Below, piece by piece: positions 4,744 through 17,524 of a stretch of 64,000 nt of DNA; position 1 is the first letter of the stretch; each line of letters opens with the position of its first letter. Both the position numbers and the translations under genes were made by a program. Below the pieces are notes generated by a model that made no database searches, was not told the DNA's origin, and worked only from the letters and a program-made list of their open reading frames with translations. The stretch comes from a virus. Its lineage: Duplodnaviria > Heunggongvirae > Uroviricota > Caudoviricetes. The DNA lies in the IMG/VR virus record IMGVR_UViG_3300027710_001241, positions 16,620-80,619 of that record, one strand, 5' to 3'.

Positions 4744-4757
4744 CTTGCCCTCCTTTC

Positions 4758-4985: not shown

Positions 4986-4991
4986 TCTTTC

Positions 4992-5743: not shown

Positions 5744-5753
5744 ACTATTTCCT

Positions 5754-5978: not shown

Positions 5979-5988
5979 TATTTGCTCC

Positions 5989-6279: not shown

Positions 6280-6394
6280 TTCAGCAATCCTTTGTAATAT
6301 TGATACAGGCCCAAGATTTGGTTCCAGTCACGTGGATGACCACAGTTTAGGTTTCGTCTGTAGTATTCCACTTGGCTACGGATAAACTCTTGGC

Positions 6395-6634: not shown

Positions 6635-6710
6635 AACAAATCCTCCGGGCAAGGCGTTCTTACCATATCAACGATAACATACACCCACAATAAAAAATAC
6701 AAATATTCAA

Positions 6711-7109: not shown

Positions 7110-7297
7110 TATGCAACCTTTCTATAATCTGCACGATAAAAACAATCTGGATCACCGGAGAAGTAGTTTTCGCAGAACTTCTTGGCTTCTTCTTCATTAT
7201 CGAAGAACTTCTCTCCCATTGGGCGCTGTCCATAACCACGCTCATATTCCGTCATTGTAACTTTATACAGGGGACCATTTAGTTTGACTTCAGACAT
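7109..7297 (-). CDS. hypothetical protein
   Basis: ORF 62 aa downstream of consensus promoter. Confidence 0.4.
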   Translation of the reverse strand: MSEVKLNGPLYKVTMTEYERGYGQRPMGEKFFDNEEEAKKFCENYFSGDPDCFYRADYRKVA

Positions 7298-7328
7298 TTT
7301 GTACCACCTTTCTATTTACTATGCTTAC

Positions 7329-7357
7329 AGTATAGCACGGTTTTACCAGTTTGTCAA
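7329..7357 (-). promoter_or_regulatory. sigma70-type promoter (TTGACA-17-TATACT on minus strand)
   Basis: rc reads GGTTGACAAACTGGTAAAACCGTGCTATACT. Confidence 0.6.
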
Positions 7358-7561
7358 CCTATAAATACATATTATGAAGCCAAAAACCCATCAACAGCAG
7401 ATGATTGACAAAATTGATCTACTTTTGGACAGTTATCAGCTTGAAACAAAAGAAAAAACCCTCATTTATCAACGAGGGTTATTAACTGGATGGTTAGCCA
7501 AAATTGCTAGTACTGATTATATAGTTAGGCAAGAATTGGAAGGTCGCCTAGAACAACGTGG

Positions 7562-7632
7562 AGCGGGTACCGAGAATCGAACTCGGAATTAAACTTTGGC
7601 AAAGTTTTAGGTTACCTTTACATCATACCCGC
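7562..7632 (-). tRNA. tRNA-Gly(GCC)
   Basis: acceptor GCGGGTA/TACCCGC, anticodon loop UUGCCAA, T-arm CCGAGTTCGATTCTCGG. Confidence 0.7.
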
Positions 7633-7657
7633 ATTAAAAATATTTATAATTTGATAT

Positions 7658-7735
7658 TGGAGCAACGGGTCAGATTTGAACTGACGGTTTTACGGATTTG
7701 CAATCCGTTGCATTGGGCCTCTCTGCCACCGTTGC
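7658..7735 (-). tRNA. tRNA-Cys(GCA)
   Basis: acceptor GCAACGG/CCGTTGC, anticodon loop UUGCAAA, T-loop TTCAAAT, CCA encoded. Confidence 0.75.
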
Positions 7736-7740
7736 ATTAA

Positions 7741-7971
7741 TTAACGAATTCGTTTGAGATAATCTCGACCAACTCTACCTTCTTGAATATCGAGTAAGGC
7801 AGCTACAGGTGCATTTAACTGGCCTGTATTTTCAGCATGACGATGTTGACGTGCTAGTTCTCTAGCTCTAACAGCCGCGATCAATACTAGATCGAAGCGA
7901 TTACCTCCGGACATTTCTACACATTTCTCAGTGTCAATTGTTGTGCCGCGACTTAGTTTTTTAATAACCAT
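7741..7971 (-). CDS. rpoZ: DNA-directed RNA polymerase omega subunit-like
   Basis: NRFDLVLIAAVRARELARQ signature; AAAGG SD. Confidence 0.65.
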   Translation of the reverse strand: MVIKKLSRGTTIDTEKCVEMSGGNRFDLVLIAAVRARELARQHRHAENTGQLNAPVAALLDIQEGRVGRDYLKRIR

Positions 7972-8020
7972 ATATTACCTTTGAAGTTTAAAATTTAATT
8001 ATAACAGGTTCTCATTTTTT

Positions 8021-8075
8021 GTGCTACCACTACACCAACACAGTTGACCAAACTGTGCCCAGGATTCGAACCTGG
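8021..8075 (-). ncRNA. tRNA-like fragment: T-arm plus 3' acceptor immediately followed by a complementary 5' acceptor/D-arm half (permuted order)
   Basis: minus reads CCAGGTTCGAATCCTGG GCACAGT TTGGTCA ACTGTGT TG GTGTAGTGGTAGCAC; no anticodon arm. Confidence 0.3.
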
Positions 8076-8136
8076 CCCGTCTTTTTTACAGAAAGATTTA
8101 ATAAGATTGCTGAAAAGAACCTAAATAGTCAATTGG

Positions 8137-8212
8137 TTGCGGGGGAAGGATTCGCACCTCCGATCTCCAGCTTATGAGACTGGCGGGGACGACTAGACTC
8201 CCCTACCCCGCG
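8137..8212 (-). tRNA. initiator-type tRNA-fMet(CAU)
   Basis: starts CGCGGGG, ends CCCCGCAA with C1:A72 mismatch as in bacterial tRNAfMet; anticodon loop CUCAUAA. Confidence 0.75.
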
Positions 8213-8525
8213 ATAATTAACTTGGAATAATATGCGGAATGTACGGCACTGCTCTAGGACCACCATACAGTTGTTCGAAAAGTTTTTTAGCCTCTTGCGG
8301 TGTATCCGCATAGATCCTTTTCTTTTCTTCACCGTTAGATGTTCTTACAGTTGTTTCATACATTGGCATATTATATCCTTAAAATGGTGGGATTCGGTTT
8401 TGAGGCCCATCCCGGTGAGTAGATCACTACCGCCTGTTACATTGTTGTACGTACTATTGCTTGCCCAAGGATTTACCGCGGTACCTTGCGACTCATACTG
8501 AATGATGTAACCCATACGCTGCTCT

Positions 8526-8605
8526 TGGTCTCCAGTGTGGGATTCGAACTCACATTATTCCTCGTCCCAAACGAGGTGCCATAACCAGGTTAGGCGAACC
8601 GGAGA
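8526..8605 (-). tRNA. tRNA-Pro(UGG), copy 1 (one T-stem mismatch)
   Basis: anticodon arm CCUCG UUUGGGA CGAGG; T-loop TTCGAAT; CCA encoded. Confidence 0.6.
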
Positions 8606-8639
8606 AATCTCTTAACATACTCGTCTATTGTTTTCTAAT

Positions 8640-9284
8640 TTAATTTTTCCACAAATGGTGAATTTTTTCAGGCATTTTAAATTTATCTTTTTCCTGCAAA
8701 ATCTCTATATCATCACCGTAGTCATCTTTGCCACGCCACGGTGATCCTAATGCTAAAGTTACTTTGGGAGTATTTCCAGTATTAACCATACCATGTGGCC
8801 ATCCACCATTCATAATAAATGCGTGTTCTGTATCAGGTGCGTTAACTGGTCCTTTATCAGTAAGCCAGTACAGCGTATCTGTTTTTCCCTGAAGCACAAT
8901 TCTAAATTTATGTTGTAATGTATCTAATTCATTTGCATTACAATCAAAATGTTCATGATTAGCCTCTCCAGGTTGTGTAACCAGCGCCATGACTCTAGTT
9001 TTCATTCCTATCCAAGGAAATACAAAATTATTACACCATTCTACTATAGTAGGAGTTTGTTCTGTTATTTCAGTCCATTCAAACCCACCATTCTTTTCAT
9101 TAGATGTTCCATCAGCTCCGATATCTCCGCCCTTAGTCATAAGGGGAAACATTTGAGTATATCTGTAATCGTCCCAAAAAGAAAACGACTTATCTAATGA
9201 TAAAATTTCTTTAGTAGCCTTTTGTTTATCTAAAATCGGAATAGATAATACACTGGCAAATAATATATTTTTTACTTCAGACAT
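8640..9284 (-). CDS. hypothetical protein, possible cupin/2OG-oxygenase-like
   Basis: HEHFD ... WPHG spacing; weak. Confidence 0.3.
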   Translation of the reverse strand: MSEVKNILFASVLSIPILDKQKATKEILSLDKSFSFWDDYRYTQMFPLMTKGGDIGADGTSNEKNGGFEWTEITEQTPTIVEWCNNFVFPWIGMKTRVMALVTQPGEANHEHFDCNANELDTLQHKFRIVLQGKTDTLYWLTDKGPVNAPDTEHAFIMNGGWPHGMVNTGNTPKVTLALGSPWRGKDDYGDDIEILQEKDKFKMPEKIHHLWKN

Positions 9285-9303
9285 TTTAGATTTTTATAAA
9301 AAT

Positions 9304-9379
9304 TGGTACATCGTGACGGGCTCGAACCGCCGACAGCCACCGTGTAAGGATGGAGCTCTACCAACTGAGCTAACGATGC
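9304..9379 (-). tRNA. tRNA-Val(UAC)
   Basis: D-arm GCTCAGTTGGTAGAGC, anticodon loop CUUACAC, T-arm GGCGGTTCGAGCCCGTC. Confidence 0.8.
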
Positions 9380-9386
9380 AAAAATA

Positions 9387-9460
9387 TGGAGCGGGGTAAG
9401 AGAATCGAACTCTCCGCATCAGCTTGGAAGGCTGAGGTATTACCACTATACGAACCCCGC
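9387..9460 (-). tRNA. tRNA-Gly(UCC)
   Basis: acceptor GCGGGGT/ACCCCGC, anticodon loop CUUCCAA. Confidence 0.8.
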
Positions 9461-9767
9461 ATACTTTACTAAAACAAACTAAGGTATATTAAAAAGGTAT
9501 GACTATGTCAAAGAGCTTCCCGGGATACCAAACCTGATCTTTTTAGGGATTTAAATTTGTTTTAATAAAGTGTCTAGCTACTCTCACCACAAGAGCCCTA
9601 GACTGAGCAGTTACTCTGTCCACTAGCCTTTCCATTTAGACGGTGCTTAGGTCCGCCTTTGTGATTTCTCAAGTCGCCTTAAATGGGCCTTGCGGTAGAT
9701 CCAATGCACCGTGCTGTTAAGGTGTAGCAATTACCTAACTCTGTTACGCTGAGTTAACGCGGGTTAT

Positions 9768-9841
9768 TGGTGCCCCTACACAGAATCGAACTGCAAATTA
9801 CGGATTACAAAACCGTCGTTATACCATTTAACTATAAGGGC
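9768..9841 (-). tRNA. tRNA-Thr(UGU)
   Basis: acceptor GCCCTTA/TAGGGGC, anticodon loop UUUGUAA, T-loop TTCGATT. Confidence 0.7.
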
Positions 9842-9851
9842 TTTAATCTAT

Positions 9852-10100
9852 TTAACTGCTTTGAGCAGTGAAGGTAGTTCCGGGAGGAGGACTTACCTTA
9901 CCGTCAGCATGCCGAGTCCAACCTGACGGAGTATCCGGTGCTTTTGCTTGATTTGAATTAGCAATTCTTTCAAACTCTTCATCTTCATGTTCAGCATCGT
10001 CTTTTATCCGAGGATCGGGCTTACGAAAAATTGCATCGAAGTTATTGGCAAATTGTTCTTGACTGACGCTATATGGTCTAGGGCTACTACCTTTTGACAT
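9852..10100 (-). CDS. hypothetical protein
   Basis: start at internal ATG with AAAGGA SD. Confidence 0.4.
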   Translation of the reverse strand: MSKGSSPRPYSVSQEQFANNFDAIFRKPDPRIKDDAEHEDEEFERIANSNQAKAPDTPSGWTRHADGKVSPPPGTTFTAQSS

Positions 10101-10110
10101 TTTTATCCTT

Positions 10111-10692
10111 TCATTTAACGAAATGGTACCAACCATTTATAATATATTTCTCTTCGGTCTGCGATGGTATTCCACGATGTGTAAATGTCCAATCGGCAGG
10201 CCAAATCATTGTTAATCCTTTTTCAGGTTTAACTTTTATTCCTTGGTGAAAAAATTCAGTTTCACCTTGATCTTGAATATCGTTTAAGTATGTTAAAAAT
10301 ACTAGATGTCTTGCACCCCTGGGCATTTGACAAGTTACTCGTTCTGTATGCCAAGCATGAAACGCACTACCTTTATTATACTTCTTTATTGTAAAACCTT
10401 CTGCAATAGCCCAAGCACCGTACTCGTTGCACTTTGGATATTTCTTAACATATTCTTTGGTTATCTCAGTTAACCAATTAACATATTTTATGAAAATACC
10501 ACCGGGTGCAGGATCAACATAACAGTCTAAACTATCTTTAATAGATAAGTCAATAACTTTATTGCCATGGCCGCCTTGTACAATGTTATCACTGTCTTGA
10601 TGAAATTTAATTAACTCGTCGCAAAAATCAACATCATCGTGATACCAGCCACTAATAAAATTATTTAAACTATTAATCGAATGTTCACGCAT
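10111..10692 (-). CDS. 2OG-Fe(II) oxygenase (prolyl-4-hydroxylase-like)
   Basis: listed ORF N-terminus is actually tRNA-Asn; real start MREHS; HxD...H-type jelly-roll region. Confidence 0.5.
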   Translation of the reverse strand: MREHSINSLNNFISGWYHDDVDFCDELIKFHQDSDNIVQGGHGNKVIDLSIKDSLDCYVDPAPGGIFIKYVNWLTEITKEYVKKYPKCNEYGAWAIAEGFTIKKYNKGSAFHAWHTERVTCQMPRGARHLVFLTYLNDIQDQGETEFFHQGIKVKPEKGLTMIWPADWTFTHRGIPSQTEEKYIINGWYHFVK

Positions 10693-10716
10693 ACTATTTT
10701 TAAAACTGGCTCCCCA

Positions 10717-10792
10717 GCGTGGGATCGAACCACGGACACCTTGATTAACAGTCAAGTGCAACTACCGCTGTGCTACTGGGGAATAAATTGTT
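10717..10792 (-). tRNA. tRNA-Asn(GUU), copy 1
   Basis: UCCCCAG...CUGGGGA G CCA as in E. coli tRNA-Asn; anticodon loop CUGUUAA. Confidence 0.85.
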
Positions 10793-10845
10793 TGATTGTT
10801 ATCTTGTCCGTCTTGTTACTATTGTAACATCGTTCTAAAAGAATG

Positions 10846-11088
10846 TCAATCTGTTTTGGTAGATAACGTTTCTTCTTCAGAAACTCCGTTGATAGTGAAT
10901 CGACGTTTTGCTTCAATAACGCCACCGCCACCACCTACAACTCCACCACCTACAACTCCACCACCGCCAACTCCACCTACTGGTGAAACTCCTGACAATG
11001 TAAATGGGTTATTTTTTAAATTAGGTTCTTTACTTACGATTAAACCCTCAAGTGTTTTAATTTTTTCATTACAAAAAGTTGCAGTCAT
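10846..11088 (-). CDS. small glycine-rich protein (frame choice uncertain; opposite strand gives a Pro/Thr-rich ORF)
   Basis: sits on a GGTGG/CCACC low-complexity repeat; minus strand chosen to match neighbours. Confidence 0.3.
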   Translation of the reverse strand: MTATFCNEKIKTLEGLIVSKEPNLKNNPFTLSGVSPVGGVGGGGVVGGGVVGGGGGVIEAKRRFTINGVSEEETLSTKTD

Positions 11089-12518
11089 GTTAAATCCTTT
11101 GGAAATATAACGTATTTAGCGCCATCATATTTTAATTTAGTAAAAGCCCATCTTCTTTCATTGCAAGGAAAATTCCAGCAAGGTTCTTCTAGAGAGGAAT
11201 GACCTTCAGAACACGGACTAATAATGTTAAAAATTTCTTCTATTCCTAATTTAAATATAGCATCTACAATATGATATTTTTGCAAATTGAAAAGCGGTTG
11301 TAAAATTTGTTTGTGTTCAGATTTAATTCTTTTCCAATGCAAATTTGTCCATTCATGATTTTCGTTGGGTAATTCGTTGTCACCTAAAAACATGTATCTT
11401 AAATTATATAAATGTTTTATTGTAATTGTTTTACCTGAAGAAACTATATGATTTTCATTAAGTAATTTTTGATCAATCACGTTAACATACGAACTACTGA
11501 AGGATCCGTTTATTATCTTTTCTGAATCAAATACTTTTAAATTTTTTAATGTATAATTGGAACTAGAGTACTTTTTTATAAAGTCAATTAATAGTTCGGC
11601 TCTTCCAACATCTTCCGGTCTTGCCTCATTAAAAAACACGAAGGGTCGTATAATATAGGGTATTTTTTGATGAGAATTTAAAACACATAATAAAAATAAT
11701 AGTAAAGTGCTGTCATAACCACCGGTGAATCCTACAGCTATACAATTTTTAGGGTGATCATTTGCGGGTAAAATTACCTTAAGTTCTCTACGATCGTAAT
11801 CGGGGCCAACTTCTAAAGTAAATTCGGTGTCTTTAAAATTTTCATAGAAGAAGGATTCATTGGTATAATGTTTAAAGTCGAGAACTTTTTTATTAATTTC
11901 ACTTTCTCTAATCCAAATAGTAACAACATATTTGCTGCCTTTTTCTACTGGTAAACCTTCATGTTGAGTATGAAGATTACTCATATAATTTTCATTATCG
12001 TAATTATATTGAAAATAAAGTAACTTACCTTGTTCAGGCCGTATGACAAAATCTATCCAAGGAAAATATGTGTGACCACCTGCACCAACCTCAACTTCGT
12101 TGAGATACAAAAGTACGGTAGCAACTCTATTGCCTCCGTGACCGCATCTTTCTTCATGCAAAGATTGTGCCTTTTCATCTTTATAGTCAATATGGTAATC
12201 TTGATGAAACCCAAACTTTTCACCTTCGTTGTATCTAATGTACGTAGTCTCTTCAAAATGAGATTCGGGCCATCCTGTAAATTCACTGACTCTTTTCCTA
12301 ATTTCTGCATCTATATCGGGATTTTTTTTAAGCATGTCTACGTCAACTGATGCGGACCTGTATTCTGTATCTACAGATAACAGGCCGTCGTCATAGATAA
12401 TATGTCCCTTAGGTGCGTCTTCTGCGAACTCTTGAATAATTTTTTCACAAGTTTCTGCATCTAGAAAATTATTACACTTATATATAAGTGGTTCTTGTAA
12501 TAAAATAACCTTTTCCAT
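11085..12518 (-). CDS. fusion protein: N-terminal prolyl-4-hydroxylase-like 2OG-Fe(II) oxygenase domain plus C-terminal PP-loop ATPase (QueC/asparagine-synthase-like) with Cys cluster
   Basis: FHQDYHIDY HxD motif; later GFTGGYDST PP-loop and CSEGH..PCWNFPC; start at ATG with AAGGA SD. Confidence 0.5.
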   Translation of the reverse strand: MEKVILLQEPLIYKCNNFLDAETCEKIIQEFAEDAPKGHIIYDDGLLSVDTEYRSASVDVDMLKKNPDIDAEIRKRVSEFTGWPESHFEETTYIRYNEGEKFGFHQDYHIDYKDEKAQSLHEERCGHGGNRVATVLLYLNEVEVGAGGHTYFPWIDFVIRPEQGKLLYFQYNYDNENYMSNLHTQHEGLPVEKGSKYVVTIWIRESEINKKVLDFKHYTNESFFYENFKDTEFTLEVGPDYDRRELKVILPANDHPKNCIAVGFTGGYDSTLLLFLLCVLNSHQKIPYIIRPFVFFNEARPEDVGRAELLIDFIKKYSSSNYTLKNLKVFDSEKIINGSFSSSYVNVIDQKLLNENHIVSSGKTITIKHLYNLRYMFLGDNELPNENHEWTNLHWKRIKSEHKQILQPLFNLQKYHIVDAIFKLGIEEIFNIISPCSEGHSSLEEPCWNFPCNERRWAFTKLKYDGAKYVIFPKDLT

Positions 12519-12552
12519 GGAGTCCTTAATGTATGTAGAATTATTTAATCTA

Positions 12553-13224
12553 TTATTTTTTAATGACCATGCAACTCTGAAAACAACTAGGAATATCTGG
12601 AAAGGCATCTACTAGTAAAGGTTGATAATCTTTGAGAAGATTTTGTAGGTAATCTTTTTTATAAAAAGTCAACAAAAATTTTATATTTGATTCTATAGTC
12701 TTGCTACATCTATTATCCGAAAGATACGTGTAGTCTGATGTTTCTATTAAATCACAAGACCCATAATCACGAATTCTCTTTTTATAGAAAAAATTAGTTG
12801 ATGGTTTCGAATCTATGTCTAGCCAGGTAGCCAGTATAGTGCCACCCGGTTTTAAATAACTGTATAACCATTCTATCTTACTGCACATGTCTTCTTGCGA
12901 AGTATGCGTAAAAACACTATAACTAATTATAGTATCGTATTGCTTTTCAAAGTTATAAGTTTCTTCAGTACCATTAGGATTATAAACTGGATTATAGCCA
13001 TCATACCAAATGAATTTGGCCTTAGGAAAAAGTTTTAAACCTTCATCTAATGCTTCTTTGTCTACATCAATTCCAGTATAGTTTTCTTCTGCAAACTGAC
13101 CACGACTGCTGTCTAAAAAGGTTCCGTAGTTGGAACCGTAGTCTAAAACAGATCCTTGTGTAATACTAGGATTTAATCTTTTAAAATATTTGAATGTATC
13201 TTTATAATAATCGAGTTTTGCCAT
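12553..13224 (-). CDS. class I SAM-dependent methyltransferase
   Basis: VLDYGSNYGTF motif I-like. Confidence 0.5.
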   Translation of the reverse strand: MAKLDYYKDTFKYFKRLNPSITQGSVLDYGSNYGTFLDSSRGQFAEENYTGIDVDKEALDEGLKLFPKAKFIWYDGYNPVYNPNGTEETYNFEKQYDTIISYSVFTHTSQEDMCSKIEWLYSYLKPGGTILATWLDIDSKPSTNFFYKKRIRDYGSCDLIETSDYTYLSDNRCSKTIESNIKFLLTFYKKDYLQNLLKDYQPLLVDAFPDIPSCFQSCMVIKK

Positions 13225-13244
13225 CGATACTCTTTATAAATTTA

Positions 13245-13321
13245 TGGTGCCCAGGGCGAGACTCGAACTCGCAAAATTTGGCTTCTAAGACCAACACGTA
13301 TACCAATTCCATCACCTGGGC
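13245..13321 (-). tRNA. tRNA with anticodon UAG (Leu, CUN codons) but short class-I variable loop
   Basis: acceptor GCCCAGG/CCUGGGC; anticodon arm UUGGU CUUAGAA GCCAA; T-arm GCGAGTTCGAGTCTCGC; consensus promoter just upstream. Confidence 0.55.
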
Positions 13322-13329
13322 ATAAAACT

Positions 13330-13358
13330 ATTATAGCAGAATATTTATATTCTGTCAA
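13330..13358 (-). promoter_or_regulatory. sigma70 consensus promoter driving the tRNA array
   Basis: rc reads GGTTGACA GAATATAAATATTCTGC TATAAT. Confidence 0.65.
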
Positions 13359-13593
13359 CCTACATTATTAAATTTGTTAAAGTAGTGCTACCATCGTTAT
13401 AAGCACCATTCACCTGTGTAATAAACTCGAGCAGGACTCGGTACGTTACTTGGGATAGATCCAGATGATACCCACTGTATGCCGATCCCATTCAAGCGAT
13501 CAGCCGGGCAACGAACCCGCATCCTTTTACTATATCGGTAGTTCGAACATACCTTTATAGCGTGACTTCTCTTGCTAACACTCTAACAAAACT

Positions 13594-13683
13594 TGGTCCC
13601 GCAGTGAGGAATCGAACCCCATCCTGGACCTTATCTAGATTAATCGGATATAAGCCGACCTGCTCTCCTTGAGCTACTGCGGG
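13594..13683 (-). tRNA. atypical 90-nt tRNA-like gene (anticodon loop CUUAUAU, i.e. UAU by my fold; long variable region)
   Basis: acceptor CCCGCAG/CUGCGGG A CCA, T-arm UGGGGTTCGATTCCUCA, anticodon stem GUCGG/CCGAU. Confidence 0.4.
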
Positions 13684-13691
13684 AAAAACTT

Positions 13692-13767
13692 TGGCGTCCC
13701 TAGGGGGATTCGAACCCCCGTACTCACCGTGAAAGGGTGATGTCCTAGGCCTCTAGACGATAGGGAC
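13692..13767 (-). tRNA. tRNA-Glu(UUC), copy 1
   Basis: acceptor GUCCCUA/UAGGGAC; anticodon arm UCACC CUUUCAC GGUGA; T-arm GGGGGTTCGAATCCCCC. Confidence 0.85.
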
Positions 13768-13775
13768 ATTTAAAA

Positions 13776-13943
13776 CCATTAATTGATAGCACTCACAGTC
13801 TATGACGACGAGCGAATTTCTGAGTGAGGTGCTTCCTCTCATAAGCCATTGCTGTGGTTGTGTTAGGACTGATCGATGGCCCGACCAGCCCGCCTAGTAT
13901 ATGCGTCCATATACGATACCCACTGAATGCTATCAATTAATGG
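13776..13943 (-). ncRNA. structured ~168-nt RNA candidate closed by a perfect 16-bp terminal helix
   Basis: CCATTAATTGATAGCA at 13776-13791 is the exact reverse complement of 13928-13943; internal hairpins GUAUAUG/CAUAUAC, CUGGUCG/CGAUCAG, GAGG/CCUC; no ORF. Confidence 0.4.
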
Positions 13944-14025
13944 TGCTCGGACCCGGAATCGAACCGGGATGCCTTTCGGCGAGAGATTTTAAGTCTCTTG
14001 TGTCTACCTATTTCACCATCCGAGC
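13941..14025 (-). tRNA. tRNA-Leu(UAA), class II
   Basis: acceptor GCUCGGA/UCCGAGC, anticodon arm AGAGA CUUAAAA UCUCU, long variable arm, T-arm CCGGTTCGATTCCGG. Confidence 0.85.
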
Positions 14026-14107
14026 AAATATCAAATTATTTTTTAAAGAACAATGTTAATTGCTTAACGTATGCTATTATTATAGCGCCTTTTTCTTTGC
14101 TTGTCAA

Positions 14108-14182
14108 GTGGTGCTCAAGGAAAGAATCGAACTTTCTACTCAGTCTTACCAAGACTGTGTTATGCCATTTAACTACAAGAGC
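14108..14182 (-). tRNA. tRNA-Thr(GGU) (two U-U mismatches in acceptor stem)
   Basis: anticodon arm CAGUC UUGGUAA GACUG; T-loop TTCGATT. Confidence 0.6.
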
Positions 14183-14183
14183 A

Positions 14184-14258
14184 TGGCCTCGCCTGCAGGA
14201 ATCGAACCCACATTCGCGAGGTAGAAGCTCGCTGTATTATCCATTATACTAAGGCGAG
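14184..14258 (-). tRNA. tRNA-Arg(UCU), copy 1
   Basis: acceptor CUCGCCU/AGGCGAG, anticodon arm GCGAG CUUCUAC CUCGC. Confidence 0.8.
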
Positions 14259-14263
14259 ATGTC

Positions 14264-14337
14264 TGGCACCCGGAGTAGGAATCGAACCTACAATAGCAGA
14301 GTCAAAGTCTGTTGTGTTACCACTACACTATCCGGGA
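14264..14337 (-). tRNA. tRNA-Gln(UUG)
   Basis: anticodon loop CUUUGAC; U1-U72 mismatch at the acceptor top. Confidence 0.65.
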
Positions 14338-14413
14338 TCAAATAAACAGGATGCTTTTTTACGGTTTTGATTAAAAGTCAAATGTATAAAGTTTGCTGAA
14401 CGCATCCTAAAAC
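14338..14413 (-). repeat. inter-tRNA structured spacer element, copy 1
   Basis: AACAGG-arm-...GTTTGCTG...-arm'-CCTAAAACTGG with outer stem AGGATGC/GCATCCT and inner hairpin TTTGA/TCAAA. Confidence 0.5.
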
Positions 14414-14489
14414 TGGTACCAACTTGAGGGATCGAACCTCATTCCACGGTGCTTCAAACCGTTGCTATGACCACATCAGCTAAGTTGGT
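14414..14489 (-). tRNA. tRNA-Phe(GAA)
   Basis: anticodon arm ACGGU UUGAAGC ACCGU; acceptor ACCAACU/AGUUGGU. Confidence 0.8.
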
Positions 14490-14496
14490 ATTGAAT

Positions 14497-14571
14497 TGGT
14501 AGATGTTAGTGGGATTGAACCACTGACCTTCACGGTGTCGACGTGGTGCTCTACCTCTGAGCTAAACATCT
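14497..14571 (-). tRNA. tRNA-Val(GAC)
   Basis: D-arm GCTCAGAGGTAGAGC; anticodon loop UCGACAC (C33 unusual); T-arm AGTGGTTCAATCCCACT. Confidence 0.65.
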
Positions 14572-14575
14572 ATAT

Positions 14576-14651
14576 TGGTCTCGCATGAAGGACTCGAACC
14601 TTCGAACTCCTCGCCCCAAACGAGGTGGCATAGCCGCTAACCGAATGCGAG
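14576..14651 (-). tRNA. tRNA-Pro(UGG), copy 2
   Basis: anticodon arm CCUCG UUUGGGG CGAGG; T-arm GAAGGTTCGAGTCCTTC. Confidence 0.8.
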
Positions 14652-14657
14652 ATAAAT

Positions 14658-14732
14658 TGGTGGTAAAGGAGGGACTCGAACTCTCACTGGGCACCGTATG
14701 AAGGTGTTGCACTACCATTATGCTACATTACC
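14658..14732 (-). tRNA. elongator tRNA with CAU anticodon (Met or lysidine-Ile2)
   Basis: D-arm GCATAATGGTAGTGC; anticodon loop UUCAUAC; single mismatches in acceptor and T stems. Confidence 0.65.
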
Positions 14733-14740
14733 ATATCAAA

Positions 14741-14823
14741 GTACACTTACCAGAATCGAACTGGTGACCAGAGCACCGCTCCAGCTATACTCCACATAAC
14801 GGCCTAGCCTCAGCCGCAGTGTA
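14741..14823 (-). tRNA. tRNA-Ser(GGA), class II, acceptor helix extended to 16 bp by flanks
   Basis: anticodon arm GUUAU GUGGAGU AUAGC; variable hairpin GGAGC-GGT-GCTCT; T-arm ACCAGTTCGATTCTGGT; 16-bp perfect inverted repeat 14731-14746/14819-14834. Confidence 0.65.
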
Positions 14824-14831
14824 CTTTGATA

Positions 14832-14905
14832 TGGTAGGGGTGCTCGGGAACGATCCGAGTTTTACTGGTTAAAAGCCAGTTACTTCACCTTAAAGTTTCA
14901 CCCCC
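14832..14905 (-). tRNA. tRNA-Lys(UUU)
   Basis: anticodon arm ACUGG CUUUUAA CCAGU; unusual T-loop ATCGTTC. Confidence 0.7.
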
Positions 14906-14909
14906 ATAT

Positions 14910-14985
14910 TGGTCCACCCGGTCGGATTCGAACCGACACCTCATTGATTAAGAGTCAAGTGCGCTACCGTTAACGCTACAAGTGG
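14910..14985 (-). tRNA. tRNA-Lys(CUU)
   Basis: anticodon loop CUCUUAA; T-arm GTCGGTTCGAATCCGAC. Confidence 0.7.
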
Positions 14986-15093
14986 TTAGTCGTAATTAAA
15001 TTGATTTAATGTGCCAACCAGGACCAATACGGGGTCTAGATTGACACTAACGTTTACTACGTTTCATGTCGTTCTCCTTTTGAACATTATTAA

Positions 15094-15166
15094 AATAAAA
15101 CAGGATACTGTTTGCTTTTCACAGCCAAAAGTGAAATATTTTGGTTTGCTGTAAGTATCCTAAAAC
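15094..15166 (-). repeat. inter-tRNA structured spacer element, copy 2
   Basis: same framework; outer stem AGGATACT/AGTATCCT, inner hairpin TTTCAC/GTGAAA. Confidence 0.5.
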
Positions 15167-15241
15167 TGGTGCCCCTGGATGGAATCGAACCACCATTACC
15201 AAGTTCGTAGCCTGGAGTATTATCCATTATACTACAGGGGC
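15167..15241 (-). tRNA. tRNA-Arg(ACG)
   Basis: acceptor GCCCCUG/CAGGGGC; anticodon loop CUACGAA. Confidence 0.8.
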
Positions 15242-15310
15242 AAAATAAAACAGGTTCCGCTTTTTTCATTATGCTTGAAATAATTAAGTTTGCTGAAAGG
15301 AACCTAAAAC
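15242..15310 (-). repeat. inter-tRNA structured spacer element, copy 3
   Basis: outer stem AGGTTCC/GGAACCT, inner hairpin TTTCA/TGAAA. Confidence 0.5.
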
Positions 15311-15385
15311 TGGTAGCCACGGACAATTTCGAAATGTCGACTTCTCGCTTATCAAGCGAGTACTCTGCCTCTGAGTTACGCGGCT
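15311..15385 (-). tRNA. tRNA-Ile(GAU)
   Basis: D-arm ACTCAGAGGCAGAGT; anticodon arm CUCGC UUGAUAA GCGAG. Confidence 0.8.
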
Positions 15386-15390
15386 AAATT

Positions 15391-15467
15391 TGGGGTAACC
15401 AATGGGGAACGATCCCATTCTAGCACTTTCACAGAGTGCGGTGCTAAACCTTTACACTATGGTCACC
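15391..15467 (-). tRNA. tRNA-His(GUG) with G-1:C73
   Basis: anticodon arm GCACU CUGUGAA AGUGC; extra 5' G pairing with discriminator C. Confidence 0.85.
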
Positions 15468-15472
15468 ATTGT

Positions 15473-15546
15473 TGGCATACCCCCAAGGACTCGAACCTTG
15501 ACAAACGGTTTTGGAGACCGTTATGCTGCCATTACATCAGGGATAC
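15473..15546 (-). tRNA. tRNA-Trp(CCA)
   Basis: anticodon arm ACGGU CUCCAAA ACCGU; T-arm CAAGGTTCGAGTCCTTG. Confidence 0.8.
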
Positions 15547-15550
15547 ATAT

Positions 15551-15641
15551 TGGCCGAGAGTCAGGGAGTCGAACCCTGTGACCAGTTTTAAGCTGGTCTA
15601 CTGATTAGCAATCAGCTGCATTACCATCCTGCCCACTCTCG
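15551..15641 (-). tRNA. tRNA-Ser(GCU), class II
   Basis: anticodon loop UUGCUAA; variable arm GACCAG-CTTAAAA-CTGGTC; T-arm CAGGGTTCGACTCCCTG. Confidence 0.75.
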
Positions 15642-15646
15642 ATATG

Positions 15647-15761
15647 TGGTACGACCGGCAGGGCTTGAACCTGCAAAAACGCATTGACTAGGTCCTGCGT
15701 CCCTTCCCCACTTTATGCTATGAGCATAACGGGAGGTCTTCCATATTCCACTCACGGTCGC
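15647..15761 (-). ncRNA. 115-nt tRNA-like RNA: canonical acceptor, T-arm and encoded ACCA but ~40 extra nt in the body
   Basis: 5' GCGACCG pairs with 3' CGGTCGT-A-CCA; T-arm GCAGGTTCAAGCCCTGC; no standard D/anticodon arms by eye. Confidence 0.4.
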
Positions 15762-15802
15762 ATATATAATTATACACGAATTAAGTAGAATGTCAATTAA
15801 CT

Positions 15803-15897
15803 TGGAGGAAAGAGGAGGAGTCGAACCCCACCCGGCTCTTCACCAGGACCCAGTTTTCAAGGCTGGTCGGGGAACCATCTCCCCTGCATCACTTTCC
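15803..15897 (-). tRNA. tRNA-Ser(UGA), class II, unusual D region
   Basis: anticodon loop CUUGAAA; variable arm CCTGG-TGAAGAG-CCGGG; T-loop TTCGACT. Confidence 0.6.
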
Positions 15898-15903
15898 ATA
15901 ACT

Positions 15904-15978
15904 TGGCGACTCGACGGGGAATCGAACCCCGATAATCGGATAGACAATCCGAAGTAATGACCTTTATACGATCGAGCC
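15904..15978 (-). tRNA. tRNA-Asp(GUC), copy 1
   Basis: anticodon arm UCGGA UUGUCUA UCCGA; T-arm CGGGGTTCGATTCCCCG. Confidence 0.8.
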
Positions 15979-15984
15979 TAAAAT

Positions 15985-16059
15985 TGGTGGAGGCCGAGGG
16001 AATCGAACCCTTCTAGACATCTTCCTTGCAAGGGAAGACCGTAGCCCACTACTGCCCCC
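15985..16059 (-). tRNA. tRNA-Ala(UGC), short D-loop
   Basis: anticodon arm CUUCC CUUGCAA GGAAG; acceptor GGGGGCA/GGCCUCC. Confidence 0.6.
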
Positions 16060-16073
16060 AATAAAATCTTTGC

Positions 16074-16147
16074 TGTACATCTAGGGATCGAACCTAGCTC
16101 ATTCTTCGTTAACAGCGAAGCGCCTACACCATGCTTGCTCATGTACA
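16074..16147 (-). tRNA. tRNA-Asn-like (GUU), copy 2, poor D-stem, acceptor extended to 13 bp by flanks
   Basis: anticodon arm CUUCG CUGUUAA CGAAG; T-arm CTAGGTTCGATCCCTAG; inverted repeat CTTTGCTGTACAT/ATGTACAGCAAAG at 16068-16080/16141-16153. Confidence 0.45.
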
Positions 16148-16369
16148 GCAAAGATCTCAATGATAAAAGGAATACACGGCGCCCTAAGACGAACTACTGT
16201 CCCCACGAGCTTCTGTCCTTCAACAGCATCACCGCCAACAACACTTTTCTTACCCCTACTGGACCGACTTACTCTCGCATCGTCACCCACCTCATATGTA
16301 GTGAAGCCCACGCAGTCGCACATGGGTCGGTTTCCGTCTACTCATCTTACTAAGTGTTGTCTTAGTATT

Positions 16370-16445
16370 TGGCGCCGCTGACGGGAATCGAACCCGCCTA
16401 AATCTGATAGACAATCAGGTGCCCTACCCAGAGGACTACAACGGC
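16370..16445 (-). tRNA. tRNA-Asp(GUC)-like, copy 2 (anticodon loop UUGUCUA)
   Basis: acceptor GCCGUUG/CAGCGGC; T-arm GCGGGTTCGATTCCCGT; paralog of the next gene. Confidence 0.55.
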
Positions 16446-16449
16446 ATGT

Positions 16450-16525
16450 TGGTATCGCGTACGGGAATCGAACCCGCCTACGTAAGTTGAAAGCCTACTG
16501 ACCTAACCCAGAAGTCCAACGCGAT
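16450..16525 (-). tRNA. tRNA-Glu(UUC), copy 2
   Basis: anticodon arm GUAGG CUUUCAA CUUAC; acceptor AUCGCGU/ACGCGAU. Confidence 0.7.
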
Positions 16526-16531
16526 ATAATT

Positions 16532-16621
16532 TGGTGGTCCTTGAAGGAATTGAACCTAACTGCCAGCCACCCTACAATATTATGGCAACGGATTTACAGT
16601 CCGCCGTAGGGAACAAAGACC
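16532..16621 (-). tRNA. tRNA-Tyr(GUA), class II, weak T-stem
   Basis: anticodon arm GCGGA CUGUAAA UCCGU; long variable region; T-loop TTCAATT. Confidence 0.5.
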
Positions 16622-16858
16622 AAATTTGTAACACACTCTCCGCTATGCGTTTTTGAAACCGTCAAAAGGTAAAAGAGAATGTGTGTATCAAAGAGCACAG
16701 TCTGCGACATTGCAGTCCACATCAGCTCTATGCTCTTTAATACGCTGTAATTTTTCCCTCTACAAGAAGAGTTTCATCCTACAGGCCGCCCGTTTGCCGG
16801 ATGTTTATACTGCCCAGCGAGGTCCTCGTTACCTCATTTCACAGTTTGCGGTCTACAA

Positions 16859-17014
16859 TCACTCGTGAGCAATCTCGCGCTTTCTAACGGCTTTGCTGTA
16901 CACCTTAGCACGTTCCATCTTTTCTAAGATCATCTTACGAAAATCCTGTGGAGATAGTGTGTACTTTTGTGTAAACTCAGCTTCTCGTTGTTTCTTATTA
17001 TCTGTTTCTGTCAT
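16859..17014 (-). CDS. hypothetical small protein (52 aa)
   Basis: unlisted minus ORF MTETDNKKQREAEF...; weak SD. Confidence 0.25.
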   Translation of the reverse strand: MTETDNKKQREAEFTQKYTLSPQDFRKMILEKMERAKVYSKAVRKREIAHE

Positions 17015-17025
17015 TTTTCCGATCT

Positions 17026-17060
17026 AAAAACAAAAAACCCCAGGAGTGTTAGTCCTAGGG
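17026..17060 (-). terminator. rho-independent terminator (minus strand)
   Basis: minus reads CCCUAGGA-CUAACAC-UCCUGGGG then UUUUUUGUUUUU. Confidence 0.6.
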
Positions 17061-17296
17061 TCCTTGGAGTTTAAGTGTAAACTTGTGTTTACATTAAGTC
17101 CTCCCGGACCCTGGTAATCTCTGGTGTGCGATCATATGACAAACTACCACACTCAATCGATAACCAATTGGAGGCTATTACACCTGCCTGTTTGGGCATC
17201 GTATTAAATTGTTGATGTCTGTTAAACGATTGCATTTTGTTTCTCTTTAAAAACCTTTTGTTTTACAAGGACAGCACCATTGCTGTCTATGTGTTA

Positions 17297-17325
17297 ATTA
17301 TACAGTTATTTAGTTCTCTTGTCAA
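17297..17325 (-). promoter_or_regulatory. sigma70 consensus promoter P1
   Basis: rc reads GGTTGACA AGAGAACTAAATAACTG TATAAT. Confidence 0.6.
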
Positions 17326-17384
17326 CCTCTTTTTGTTCTTTTGAGCAAAAAGTTTTTAACAACTTTCCTATCTAACTAGTCTCT

Positions 17385-17413
17385 ATTGTACATTTATTTA
17401 GTCTCTTTGTCAA
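17385..17413 (-). promoter_or_regulatory. sigma70 consensus promoter P2 (tandem with P1)
   Basis: rc reads GGTTGACA AAGAGACTAAATAAATG TACAAT. Confidence 0.55.
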
Positions 17414-17450
17414 CCACTATTTTTATATGTTGTATTTTTACAACAAAAGT

Positions 17451-17524
17451 GGTCCGGCCTACAGGAATCGAACCTGTATTGATAGCTTAGAAGGCTACTG
17501 TTCTATCCATTGAACTAAGGCCAG
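17451..17524 (-). tRNA. tRNA-Arg(UCU), copy 2
   Basis: paralog of the 3235 and 14184 tRNAs; anticodon loop CUUCUAA; D-arm GTTCAATGGATAGAAC. Confidence 0.75.

What the first reader, a model, noticed from the sequence alone, without database searches (positions are those of the whole stretch)
15647..15761. 115-nt tRNA-like gene with canonical acceptor/T-arm but an expanded body
5' GCGACCG pairs with 3' CGGTCGT, followed by discriminator A and encoded CCA. The T-arm GCAGGTTCAAGCCCTGC is canonical. However ~88 nt separate the acceptor strands and I cannot place normal D and anticodon arms; internal hairpins such as UAUGC-UCAUA-GCAUA and ACGCA...UGCGU occur instead. It could be an intron-containing tRNA, a tRNA-like regulatory RNA, or a decoy.
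Basis: seen in the sequence. Interest (0 to 1): 0.55.

Follow-up and report, generated by a model that had tools for sequence, protein, structure and literature searches.

The report
Anticodon-less tRNA-Leu-like phage RNA family
The 115-nt sequence is a real, conserved gene for a tRNA-shaped small RNA found in at least 87 sequence variants in uncultured aquatic phages; it keeps the upper half of a leucine tRNA but has no anticodon, so it cannot decode and probably acts as a tRNA mimic whose function is still unknown.

Summary
Window 15647-15761 (minus strand) has a 7-bp acceptor stem, discriminator A, encoded CCA and a canonical T-arm, but ARAGORN and Rfam do not call it a tRNA. It is not an intron-containing tRNA or a pseudogene. 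I found 87 distinct homologs (96-119 nt) in viral and metagenome contigs. None is in cultured phages, and cellular genomes give only two short MAG contigs. On the family alignment, 96.8% of cells pair (34-47% when partners are slid) and 19 of 29 pairs show compensatory changes. The 5' third is a tRNA-Leu-type D-arm. The published E. coli LeuRS determinants (A73, A15-U48, G18G19, A20a, elbow contacts) are invariant or nearly so. The anticodon-position arm is a hypervariable spacer, from an 11-nt stub to about 33 nt, capped by CAUAG, GNRA or UUCG loops. The extra arm is a long hairpin with a near-invariant N-U-A triloop. Most copies have their own sigma70-type promoter ending 6-8 nt before G1. 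Best reading: a non-decoding, tRNA-Leu-derived mimic, matured like a tRNA and possibly leucylated. A link to the phage's Ro60-like protein is only weakly supported. It is a new family of a known kind.

The parts
15791..15796 (-). -35 hexamer TTGACA of the element's own sigma70-type promoter
   Evidence: 12/12 consensus match, 16-nt spacer. The same arrangement occurs upstream of most family members (spacer 17 nt in 33 of 38, mean 10.4 of 12 hexamer matches).
15769..15774 (-). -10 hexamer TATAAT; 7 nt separate it from G1 of the RNA
   Evidence: The -10 hexamer ends 6 nt (24/38), 7 nt (8/38) or 8 nt (3/38) before G1, so transcription is inferred to start at or within 1-2 nt of the mature 5' end.
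15647..15761 (-). Whole tRNA-like RNA gene, 115 nt including the encoded CCA
   Evidence: Covariance model R1 scores 124.5 bits. It belongs to a family of 87 unique sequences.
15755..15761 (-). Acceptor stem, 5' strand (RNA positions 1-7, GCGACCG)
   Evidence: Pairs with 15651-15657. Six of the 7 pairs covary across the family and 99.7% of cells are paired.
15734..15752 (-). D-arm (RNA positions 10-28): A10-U28, G11-C27, G13-C26 with U12 bulged; loop GAAUAUGGAAGA holds the invariant As and the GG dinucleotide
   Evidence: A-U in 83/83, G-C in 86/87; the third pair is C12-G26 in 12 sequences or G13-C26 in 74; same layout as the tRNA-Leu D-arm; invariant A15, A16, G20, G21, A23, A25.
15706..15733 (-). 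Central arm in the anticodon-arm position (RNA positions 29-56): conserved CCC/GGG base, 2-3-nt bulge, 5-bp distal stem, loop CUCAUAG
   Evidence: The distal stem covaries at all 5 pairs. The loop and the arm length are not conserved in the family, ranging from an 11-nt stub to about 33 nt with GNRA, UUCG or CAUAG caps. The CC/GG base never covaries.
15675..15704 (-). Second arm in the variable-arm position (RNA positions 58-87): long hairpin starting with GGG, with an internal loop and a 3-bp tip
   Evidence: Base and tip helices covary (helix 4 has 3 of 5 pairs and helix 5 has 3 of 3 pairs with double changes). The final U87 is the invariant U48-like residue (column 134, 87/87).
15689..15691 (-). 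Apical triloop C-U-A of the second arm (family consensus N-U-A)
   Evidence: U 87/87, A 84/87, with N = A34/U30/G14/C9. The closing pair is Watson-Crick in all but one member (C-G 62, U-A 22, A-U 2).
15658..15674 (-). T-arm GCAGG-UUCAAGC-CCUGC
   Evidence: 100% of cells are paired. T-loop U, U and C are 87/87, position 57 is a purine in 87/87, and A58 is 84/87.
15651..15657 (-). Acceptor stem, 3' strand (CGGUCGU)
15647..15650 (-). Discriminator A followed by the encoded CCA
   Evidence: The discriminator is A in 87/87. The complete ACCA end is encoded in 31 of the first 40 unique members; over all 87 members the three 3'-terminal columns read C78, C77 and A79.

Best explanation
This is a functional gene for a small, stable, tRNA-shaped RNA of about 112 nt that derives from a class II tRNA-Leu but can no longer decode. 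SHOWN: it is conserved in 87 sequence variants, with covariation supporting five helices. Most copies have their own sigma70-type promoter placed so that transcription would begin at or next to G1. It keeps a 7-bp acceptor stem, a 3-bp D-arm with a tRNA-Leu-type loop, a canonical T-arm, the U8, A14/A15, G18G19 and U48-like residues, and discriminator A. The arm in the anticodon position is a spacer helix of variable length and sequence, with no conserved loop. The extra arm is enlarged into a long hairpin with a near-invariant N-U-A triloop. INFERRED: it folds into the tRNA L-shape and is therefore handled by host tRNA enzymes. These would include RNase P where a leader exists, 3' trimming, and CCA addition in the copies that lack an encoded CCA. 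Every determinant that E. coli-type LeuRS needs is invariant or nearly so, and the two arms LeuRS does not need are exactly the ones that were remodelled, so the RNA is probably charged with leucine. Having no anticodon, it would act in trans as a tRNA mimic: it would offer a tRNA(-Leu) upper half to some tRNA-binding protein, and the conserved triloop arm would give specificity for a partner that is not yet identified.
For: Family and structure: (96.8% of cells paired against 34-47% with slid partners; 429 doubly compensated cells against about 122 in shuffles; 19 of 29 pairs with double changes). Unconstrained single-sequence folds recover the same architecture. No anticodon: the central loop varies among CAUAG, GNRA, UUCG and others, or the arm is a stub, and the triloop closing pair covaries with no U33. 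tRNA-Leu origin: the best non-family hits to model R1 are tRNA-Leu genes, the D-arm layout is identical, and the type-2 D region matches mycobacteriophage tRNA-Leu genes. Leucine identity rules come from PMC9976931, and the matching positions are invariant or nearly so. Independent transcription. It is not tied to tRNA arrays: it is the only tRNA-like gene in the held locus in L034, L038, L049 and L051. It is phage-restricted.
Against: There are no expression, processing or charging data. Most of the 'Leu determinants' are also general tRNA-core residues, so they would be conserved for folding alone; A73 is the commonest discriminator base. The type-1 D-stem needs a bulged U. No partner has been identified, and the triloop and the invariant CC/GG helix remain unexplained. 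The hosts are unknown, and LeuRS rules were established in E. coli and a few other species.
Confidence: 0.55

Rival explanations
1. It is a Y-RNA-like partner of the phage's Ro60-like protein. The tRNA-like RNA would bind the TROVE+vWA protein encoded at window 51632-53029, with the central arm in the position that the Ro-binding helix occupies in YrlA, forming an RNP for RNA quality control or repair, or for capturing a host nuclease.
For: The DUF2828/DUF7788 protein matches the Thermus phage phiLo Ro60 structures over its full length (Foldseek E=1e-8 and 4e-7, probability 1.0). Bacterial and phage Ro60 proteins bind tRNA-like Y RNAs encoded nearby (PMC4201824, PMC12135203). The Ro60-like gene lies within 5.4 kb, always on the same strand, for 15 of 87 members, and less than 1 kb away in several. 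RNA end-healing-type genes sit inside the array.
Against: In the window the two genes are 36 kb apart. The element is present in 14 of 80 Ro60-anchored loci against 3 of 32 for a control anchor next to the tRNA array, which is no clear excess, and none of the closest relatives of the window's Ro60-like gene has it within 10 kb. In L089 a terminator, a promoter, a tRNA and an ORF lie between the two genes. The Ro-binding GNCGAA motif is absent, and the topology is unpermuted, unlike YrlA. The Ro60-like protein is found in 709 cultured phage records, none of which has the element. The structural model is only moderate (pLDDT 70.6, TM 0.39).
Confidence: 0.2
2. It is a decoy or sponge against host tRNA-targeting immunity or toxins. 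The mimic would soak up enzymes that attack tRNA acceptor ends or tRNA-Leu, protecting real tRNAs. This is a special case of the tRNA-mimic reading.
For: The upper half of the tRNA is intact and is expressed from a consensus early-type promoter. The phage carries 33 or more tRNAs plus kinase and phosphoesterase genes within the array and a Ro60-like gene, which fits an RNA-damage conflict.
Against: Most known anti-phage tRNases cut anticodon loops, which this RNA lacks. No defence system or toxin is implicated by any data here. The conserved triloop arm has no obvious role in a simple decoy.
Confidence: 0.12
3. It is a cis-acting leader or processing signal. The tRNA-like fold would serve only as an RNase P/RNase Z punctuation mark or stabiliser for downstream genes (tRNA-Ser(GCU), or the Hc1 histone-like ORF).
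For: It is always first in its transcription unit, or sits between genes. An Hc1-like ORF starts 20-40 nt downstream in 17 of 40 loci. tRNA-Ser(GCU) follows it in arrays.
Against: The downstream genes differ between lineages (tRNA, Hc1, others). The discriminator A, the CCA, the LeuRS-type core and a sequence-specific triloop are conserved well beyond what a processing signal needs. Ordinary tRNAs already provide punctuation in arrays.
Confidence: 0.08
4. It is a decoding tRNA after all: an intron-containing or otherwise expanded tRNA(CAU), or a tRNA reading UAN through the NUA loop.
For: The window copy can be drawn with a 5-bp stem and a 7-nt loop C-U-CAU-A-G. The NUA loop sequences resemble Tyr or suppressor anticodons.
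Against: The CAU loop is absent from most of the family. That stem sits on top of a further 3-4 bp and a bulge, which makes the arm too long. The NUA loop is a 3-nt loop whose closing pair covaries, and position '33' is C, U or A. ARAGORN and Rfam reject it. ORFs in the window are intact under the standard code.
Confidence: 0.02
5. It is a decaying tRNA pseudogene or a sequencing or assembly artefact.
For: It lies in a tRNA array and is not called by tRNA finders.
Against: There are 87 variants from independent assemblies, with compensatory substitutions, conserved promoters and stand-alone occurrences.
Confidence: 0.01

Closest known systems
Class II tRNA-Leu (bacterial and phage)
   Same: 7-bp acceptor stem, U8, 3-bp D-stem with an 11-13-nt AAUAGG-type loop, long extra arm, canonical T-arm, U48-like residue, A73, CCA. 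tRNA-Leu genes are the best non-family hits to the covariance model.
   Different: There is no 5-bp anticodon stem with a 7-nt loop. The arm in that position varies from 11 to about 33 nt. The extra arm is roughly twice the normal length and carries a conserved N-U-A triloop. The Rfam tRNA model does not report it.
YrlA / bacterial and phage Y RNAs (Rfam RF02553), partners of Ro60/Rsr
   Same: Non-coding tRNA mimics with T-arm, D-arm and acceptor-like stem. The M. smegmatis YrlA is cut by RNase P and receives CCA. They are found in phages that encode Ro60 (PMC4201824), and this phage encodes a Ro60-like protein.
   Different: In YrlA the RNA ends form the Ro-binding helix (with GNCGAA) and the acceptor-like stem is an internal hairpin. 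Here the ends form the acceptor stem, no GNCGAA motif is present, and the gene is not consistently adjacent to the Ro60-like gene. The only RF02553 match near it is a 14.7-bit hit at 15605-15691 that overlaps just the 3' part of the element, against a gathering score of 69.
Phage T4 species 1 and 2 RNAs (rnaC, rnaD)
   Same: Stable non-tRNA RNAs of about 120-140 nt encoded inside a T4-type phage tRNA cluster, annotated only as small stable RNAs. rnaC has a T-arm and an acceptor-like pairing.
   Different: They are not homologous: rnaC scores 18 bits, through the T-arm and acceptor only, and rnaD gives no hit. Their architecture and ends differ.
tmRNA tRNA-like domain
   Same: A tRNA-like acceptor/T-arm module, aminoacylated and without an anticodon. 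Related phages such as Melnitz encode tmRNA (PMC9004378).
   Different: There is no G3.U70 alanine identity pair (position 3:70 is G-C in 74 and A-U in 13), no coding module and no pseudoknots. A D-stem is present. ARAGORN's tmRNA search reports nothing.

Membership tests
Canonical decoding tRNA (Rfam RF00005) | 7-bp acceptor stem, discriminator base, CCA end | tested here: met
   (99.7% of cells paired; six of the 7 pairs covary).
Canonical decoding tRNA (Rfam RF00005) | T-arm with the UUCRA loop and a D-loop GG for the elbow | tested here: met
   the three T-loop positions U, U and C and the D-loop GG are 87/87.
Canonical decoding tRNA (Rfam RF00005) | 5-bp anticodon stem with a 7-nt loop carrying U33 and a purine at 37 | tested here: not met
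   the loop and the arm length are not conserved. The second arm has a 3-nt loop.
Canonical decoding tRNA (Rfam RF00005) | Detected by ARAGORN, or scores at or above the Rfam gathering score (29 bits) | tested here: not met
   no tRNA hit is reported on 15647-15761, even at E<=10.
Intron-containing tRNA | A recognisable intron (bacterial group I of 200 nt or more, or an archaeal bulge-helix-bulge) whose removal leaves a conserved anticodon loop | tested here: not met
   The extra sequence is about 40 nt, split over two arms. No Rfam intron hit. No conserved anticodon in any frame. A bulge-helix-bulge motif was not searched for formally.
YrlA / Y RNA (RF02553) | A helix formed by the RNA's 5' and 3' ends that carries the Ro60-binding motif GNCGAA(N0-1)G | tested here: not met
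   the motif is absent in 38 of 40 members, and in the other two it lies in the second arm. The ends form the acceptor stem.
YrlA / Y RNA (RF02553) | A tRNA-like module (T-arm, D-arm, acceptor-like stem) | tested here: met
YrlA / Y RNA (RF02553) | Encoded next to a Ro60/TROVE gene and bound by that protein | tested here: inconclusive
   A Ro60-like gene is present in the window but 36 kb away. It lies within 5.4 kb for 15 of 87 members. The element is in 14 of 80 Ro60-anchored loci against 3 of 32 control loci. Binding cannot be tested here.
tmRNA | G3.U70 alanine identity pair, a tag reading frame, pseudoknots | tested here: not met
   (position 3:70 is G-C or A-U). (no tmRNA call). The RNA is 96-119 nt with no room for a reading frame.
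tRNA-Sec | 8/5 or 9/4 acceptor/T-stem geometry, a 6-bp D-stem, a UCA anticodon | tested here: not met
   The element has 7/5 geometry and no RF01852 hit on it. The neighbouring gene at 15807-15897 gives the 37.5-bit sub-threshold hit.
T4 species 1/2 RNA | Sequence and structure homology to rnaC or rnaD | tested here: not met
   rnaC scores 18.3 bits, through the T-arm and acceptor only; rnaD gives no hit.
Substrates of bacterial LeuRS (leucine identity set, PMC9976931) | Discriminator A73 | tested here: met
   A in 87/87.
Substrates of bacterial LeuRS (leucine identity set, PMC9976931) | A15-U48 Levitt pair, G18G19 and A20a in the D-loop, U8:A14 | tested here: met
   U8, the two loop As, the GG, the A two positions after the GG, and the U before the T-stem are all 87/87. 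Canonical numbering was assigned by alignment to tRNA-Leu, which is an inference.
Substrates of bacterial LeuRS (leucine identity set, PMC9976931) | Intact D-loop/T-loop contacts (G18:U55, G19-C56, U54:A58) | tested here: met
   the residues are present (U54, U55, C56 in 87/87; A58 in 84/87). The contacts themselves are inferred.
Substrates of bacterial LeuRS (leucine identity set, PMC9976931) | Actual aminoacylation with leucine | not testable with these tools
   This needs an in vitro charging assay or an acid-gel/periodate assay.

The most novel reading that the evidence does not exclude
The RNA is charged with leucine by the host LeuRS and used outside decoding. It could be a dedicated aminoacyl donor for a phage or host transferase. 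It could be an acceptor-end or LeuRS-directed mimic that rewires host translation or blunts tRNA-directed immunity. The invariant U-A(R) triloop arm would recruit the specific partner. That would be the first phage-encoded, aminoacylated, anticodon-less tRNA mimic other than tmRNA.
Probability: 0.25. Interest if true: 0.85.

Novelty: new variant of a known kind. Interest (0 to 1): 0.6.

Why it matters
Phage tRNA clusters have been known since T4 to hold stable non-tRNA RNAs; the T4 record still annotates rnaC and rnaD only as small stable RNAs. This family is a well-defined example: it is abundant in lake metagenomes, restricted to phages, strongly supported by covariation, and separated cleanly into a conserved tRNA-Leu upper half and two remodelled arms. 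That split gives direct, cheap experiments: LeuRS charging, RNase P and CCA assays, pull-downs with triloop mutants, and binding to the phage Ro60-like protein. If the RNA is charged or is part of a Ro60-type RNP, it would show a new way for phages to exploit or protect the host tRNA machinery. It also shows that standard tRNA finders and Rfam miss a recurrent gene in T4-like aquatic phages.

Tried and rejected
- **Spliced or expanded tRNA:** ARAGORN and Rfam at gathering and at E<=10 report no tRNA, tRNA-Sec or tmRNA match on the element and no intron family in the region; the only YrlA match is a 14.7-bit partial overlap (GA 69).
- **'Anticodon CAU' reading:** dropped once relatives showed GNRA, UUCG or stub versions of that arm.
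- **'NUA anticodon (Tyr/suppressor)' reading:** dropped because the loop is 3 nt and its closing pair covaries.
- **Loop-loop kissing between the two hairpins:** considered by eye. CUA/UAG complementarity exists in the window copy but not in AUA-type members, so I dropped it.
- **Homology to T4 rnaC/rnaD:** tested and rejected.
- **Cultured-phage homologs:** five BLAST searches, including the 30-nt conserved cores at E<=10, found none. The initial 4.6-kb megablast found only tRNA matches.
- **Literature:** no description of the family was found. The supplement of the IMG/VR structured-RNA survey is not held, so I could not check whether the family is among its unnamed candidates.
- **Ro60 link:** a sequence profile against the PDB was only marginal. 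The structure route worked, but the controlled linkage test was not convincing.

Full report
**1. What is there**

The finding lies on the minus strand inside an array of 33 ARAGORN-called tRNA genes (window 3235-17524, all on the minus strand). It sits between a Ser(UGA)-like gene and tRNA-Ser(GCU). Read 5' to 3', it has these parts:
- a 7-bp acceptor stem (G1.U plus six Watson-Crick pairs)
- U8 and G9
- a purine-rich stretch, AGUGGAAUAUGGAAGACCU
- a long hairpin (CCCG / UUAUG-CUCAUAG-CAUAA / GGGG)
- a second long hairpin ending in GAC-CUA-GUC
- a canonical T-arm
- the 3' acceptor strand, discriminator A and CCA

ARAGORN, Rfam at gathering score and Rfam at E<=10 do not report it as a tRNA, tRNA-Sec or tmRNA and find no intron family there; the only YrlA match is a 14.7-bit partial overlap far below the gathering score of 69. 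The single-sequence fold is only mildly better than shuffles (z = -2.1), so the case rests on comparison with relatives.

**2. It is a conserved family, not an accident**

- An exact-match scan with the T-arm and 3' end found a syntenic homolog on a different 73-kb viral contig. It already showed a compensatory change and a completely different second-hairpin sequence.
- Scans with the conserved 5' core and two relaxed patterns, followed by a covariance model (R1), gave 41 unique sequences in IMG/VR, one of which (L127) was set aside as a probable ordinary class II tRNA.
- A further 47 came from JGI/ENA metagenome contigs and one MAG contig.
- In total there are 87 distinct members of 96-119 nt.
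- The type-1 core is absent from 185,579 representative bacterial and archaeal genomes. The type-2 core occurs only on two short MAG contigs.
- No cultured phage in the 50,697-record collection has it, even when searching the 30-nt cores at E<=10.
- By protein similarity, the nearest cultured relatives of the window are the T4-like myophages Melnitz and Pelagibacter phage HTVC008M.

**3. Structure**

On the 87-sequence alignment, 96.8% of cells form standard pairs, against 34-47% when 3' partners are slid by 1-3 columns. 19 of 29 pairs show changes on both sides. There are 429 doubly compensated cells, against about 122 in column shuffles, with 0 of 500 shuffles reaching the observed value. 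The alignment was fitted to the model, which biases these counts. However, a MAFFT/RNAalifold analysis of the first 12 sequences gave the same helices, and unconstrained MFE folds of 40 members recover the same architecture.

The helices are:
- **Acceptor stem:** six of the 7 pairs covary.
- **D-stem:** A10-U28 in 83/83 and G11-C27 in 86/87. The third pair is C12-G26 in one subtype and G13-C26 with a bulged U in the other.
- **Central arm:** the CC(C)/GGG base never varies, but the distal part covaries at every pair.
- **Second arm:** base and tip helices both covary.
- **T-stem.**

**4. What is and is not conserved**

Invariant in 87/87: G7, U8, A10, two adjacent D-loop As, the D-loop GG, the A two positions after it, the A closing the D-loop, the U immediately 5' of the T-stem, the three T-loop positions U, U and C, and discriminator A.

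A complete ACCA 3' end is encoded in 31 of the first 40 unique members. Across all 87, each of the three CCA positions is conserved in 77-79 members. The remaining copies end in, for example, AUAG, AAUA or AACA.

The central arm is the opposite of conserved. Its forms include:
- CCC-AAAAU-GGG in L197
- a UUCG-capped 5-bp stem in L186, L190 and L181
- GNRA-capped (GCGA, GAGA, GUGA, GGGA) in a large subgroup
- CAUAG-looped in the window's subgroup

The 'CAU anticodon' of the window copy is therefore incidental. The second arm always ends in a 3-nt loop N-U-A (U 87/87, A 84/87, N any base). Its closing pair is Watson-Crick in all but one member and switches among C-G, U-A and A-U. That excludes an anticodon loop, because there is no U33 and positions '33' and '37' are paired.

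**5. Origin from tRNA-Leu**

- The best non-family hits to model R1 are tRNA-Leu genes: 28-36 bits in related phages and 29.5 bits for T4 tRNA-Leu.
- The type-2 D region matches mycobacteriophage tRNA-Leu genes.
- A direct alignment shows the same layout: 7-nt acceptor strand, U8, R9, a 3-bp D-stem and an 11-nt AAAUAGGNARA loop.

**6. Transcription and context**

In the window, a 12/12 sigma70 consensus (TTGACA-16-TATAAT, 15796-15769 minus strand) ends 7 nt before G1. Across the family the spacer is 17 nt in 33 of 38 copies, and the -10 hexamer ends 6-8 nt before G1 in 35 of 38. From this I infer that most copies are transcribed essentially without a leader. A few copies (the L089 type) lack the promoter and lie between ORFs, so there the 5' end must be produced by processing.

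Context falls into two classes:
- **Inside tRNA arrays**, usually followed by tRNA-Ser(GCU): the window, L001, L005, L008, L041 and L043.
- **Stand-alone**, with no tRNA in the held locus (L034, L038, L049, L051). Here the element lies 20-40 nt upstream of an Hc1 histone-like ORF in 17 of 40 loci, with ThyX and radical-SAM genes nearby.

A gene kept with its own promoter in phages that show no other tRNA nearby is not a by-product of tRNA arrays.

**7. How it most likely works**

Shown: it is a conserved, independently transcribed RNA that keeps all sequence features of the tRNA upper half and core but has no decoding arm.

Inferred: it adopts the L-shape and is recognised by RNase P, 3'-end trimming enzymes and the CCA-adding enzyme. 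The copies without an encoded CCA would require CCA addition.

The published identity rules for E. coli tRNA-Leu (PMC9976931) say that charging depends on:
- A73
- the A15-U48 Levitt pair
- G18G19 and A20a
- the D/T-loop contacts

[quoted passage not shown] These determinants are invariant or nearly so across the family, and the two dispensable arms are the ones evolution has rebuilt. I therefore consider leucylation plausible, at roughly one in three. The caution is that most of these residues are also needed simply to fold a tRNA core.

What the mimic then does is unknown. The never-covarying CC/GG helix, the G.U-rich start of the second arm and the U-A triloop all point to a sequence-specific partner or to tertiary packing.

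**8. The Ro60 lead**

The window encodes a DUF2828/DUF7788 protein at 51632-53029. A moderate AlphaFold model (pLDDT 70.6) matches the crystal and cryo-EM structures of the Ro60 homolog of Thermus phage phiLo over its full length (E = 1e-8 and 4e-7, but TM only 0.39). Cellular and phage Ro60 proteins bind tRNA-like Y RNAs encoded nearby (PMC4201824, PMC12135203).

In favour: the Ro60-like gene lies within 5.4 kb of the element, always on the same strand, for 15 of 87 members, and less than 1 kb away in several.

Against:
- The two genes are 36 kb apart in the window.
- Only 1 of the 12 loci with at least 5 kb held on both sides has the gene within 5 kb.
- The element occurs in 14 of 80 Ro60-anchored loci against 3 of 32 loci anchored on a control gene next to the tRNA array.
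- The Ro-binding GNCGAA motif is absent.
- The topology is unpermuted, unlike YrlA.

I keep this as the main rival, at about 0.2. It may simply reflect both genes living in the tRNA and RNA-repair region, which in the window also holds an AAA_33 kinase, a metallophosphoesterase and a DSP-type phosphatase.

**9. Comparison with known systems, and novelty**

It works like other tRNA mimics (YrlA, the tmRNA tRNA-like domain, T4 species 1 RNA) but fails the membership tests for each:
- The Rfam tRNA model does not report it, and it has no anticodon arm.
- It has no Ro-binding helix or motif.
- It has no G3.U70 pair and no tag reading frame.
- It has no homology to rnaC or rnaD.

I found no description of it in Rfam 15 or in the searchable literature. 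I could not check the unnamed candidates of the 2023 IMG/VR structured-RNA survey, because its supplement is not held. I rate it a new variant of a known kind: a new family of phage tRNA-like RNAs. Interest is moderate to high because the structure is unusually well supported, the family is widespread in aquatic phages, and its architecture makes specific, testable predictions.

Noticed in passing
window 15804-15897 (minus strand): A second class II tRNA-like gene that ARAGORN does not call. It scores 37.5 bits on the Rfam tRNA-Sec model (gathering score 47), but its anticodon loop reads CUUGAAA, so it looks like tRNA-Ser(UGA). It is syntenic with ARAGORN-called tRNA-Ser(tga) genes in L001, L041 and L043.
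   Followed up: partly
window 13594-13683 (minus strand); also L005 8677-8768, L008 13636-13725, L025 12539-12630, L029 917-1017, L007 17217-17308, L048 6431-6522, L020 13966-14059: A recurrent 'tRNA-Ile(UAU)' of 87-101 nt with an extra arm of about 21 nt, a class II shape that is unusual for isoleucine tRNAs.
   Followed up: partly
window 51632-53029 (minus strand): A DUF2828/DUF7788 protein (PHROG 850, labelled 'RNA-binding protein'). Its predicted fold matches the Ro60/TROVE+vWA protein of Thermus phage phiLo. Homologs occur in 709 cultured phage records, mostly annotated as hypothetical.
   Followed up: yes
window 3557-4018, 4138-4743, 5183-5827 (all minus strand): An AAA_33 P-loop kinase, a metallophosphoesterase and a DSP-type phosphatase-like gene are interspersed in the tRNA array. 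This could be an RNA end-healing (tRNA repair) module. No ligase was looked for.
   Followed up: no
window 44707-46620, 39085-40023, 31908-33971 (all minus strand): Phage-encoded Hsp70, a CsgG curli-pore homolog and a CHASE2-adenylate/guanylate cyclase. The cyclase matches Melnitz and HTVC008M proteins; Melnitz and SAR11 myophages are also reported to carry curli-pore genes (PMC9004378), which fits a freshwater relative of that group.
   Followed up: partly
L034 10337-10528, L049 3283-3474 and 15 other loci: A 64-aa histone-H1-like (Hc1, PF07432) ORF begins 20-40 nt after the element in 17 of 40 unique member loci. Radical-SAM genes lie divergently upstream and ThyX lies downstream.
   Followed up: partly
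Downstream of stand-alone copies, e.g. L073, L076, L115, L049, L167: An AT-rich palindrome, TTCTAnTATAAGTAGAA, follows the CCA end by about 5-10 nt. It contains TATAAGTA, which is close to the T4-type late promoter TATAAATA.
   Followed up: no
L052 1409-1547 (phage T4 rnaC): The 3' half of T4 species 1 RNA has an acceptor-like pairing (CGGAACG/CGUUUCG), a canonical T-arm and a GGAUAUGG D-loop-like stretch. It is therefore itself a tRNA-like module with a 5' extension.
   Followed up: partly
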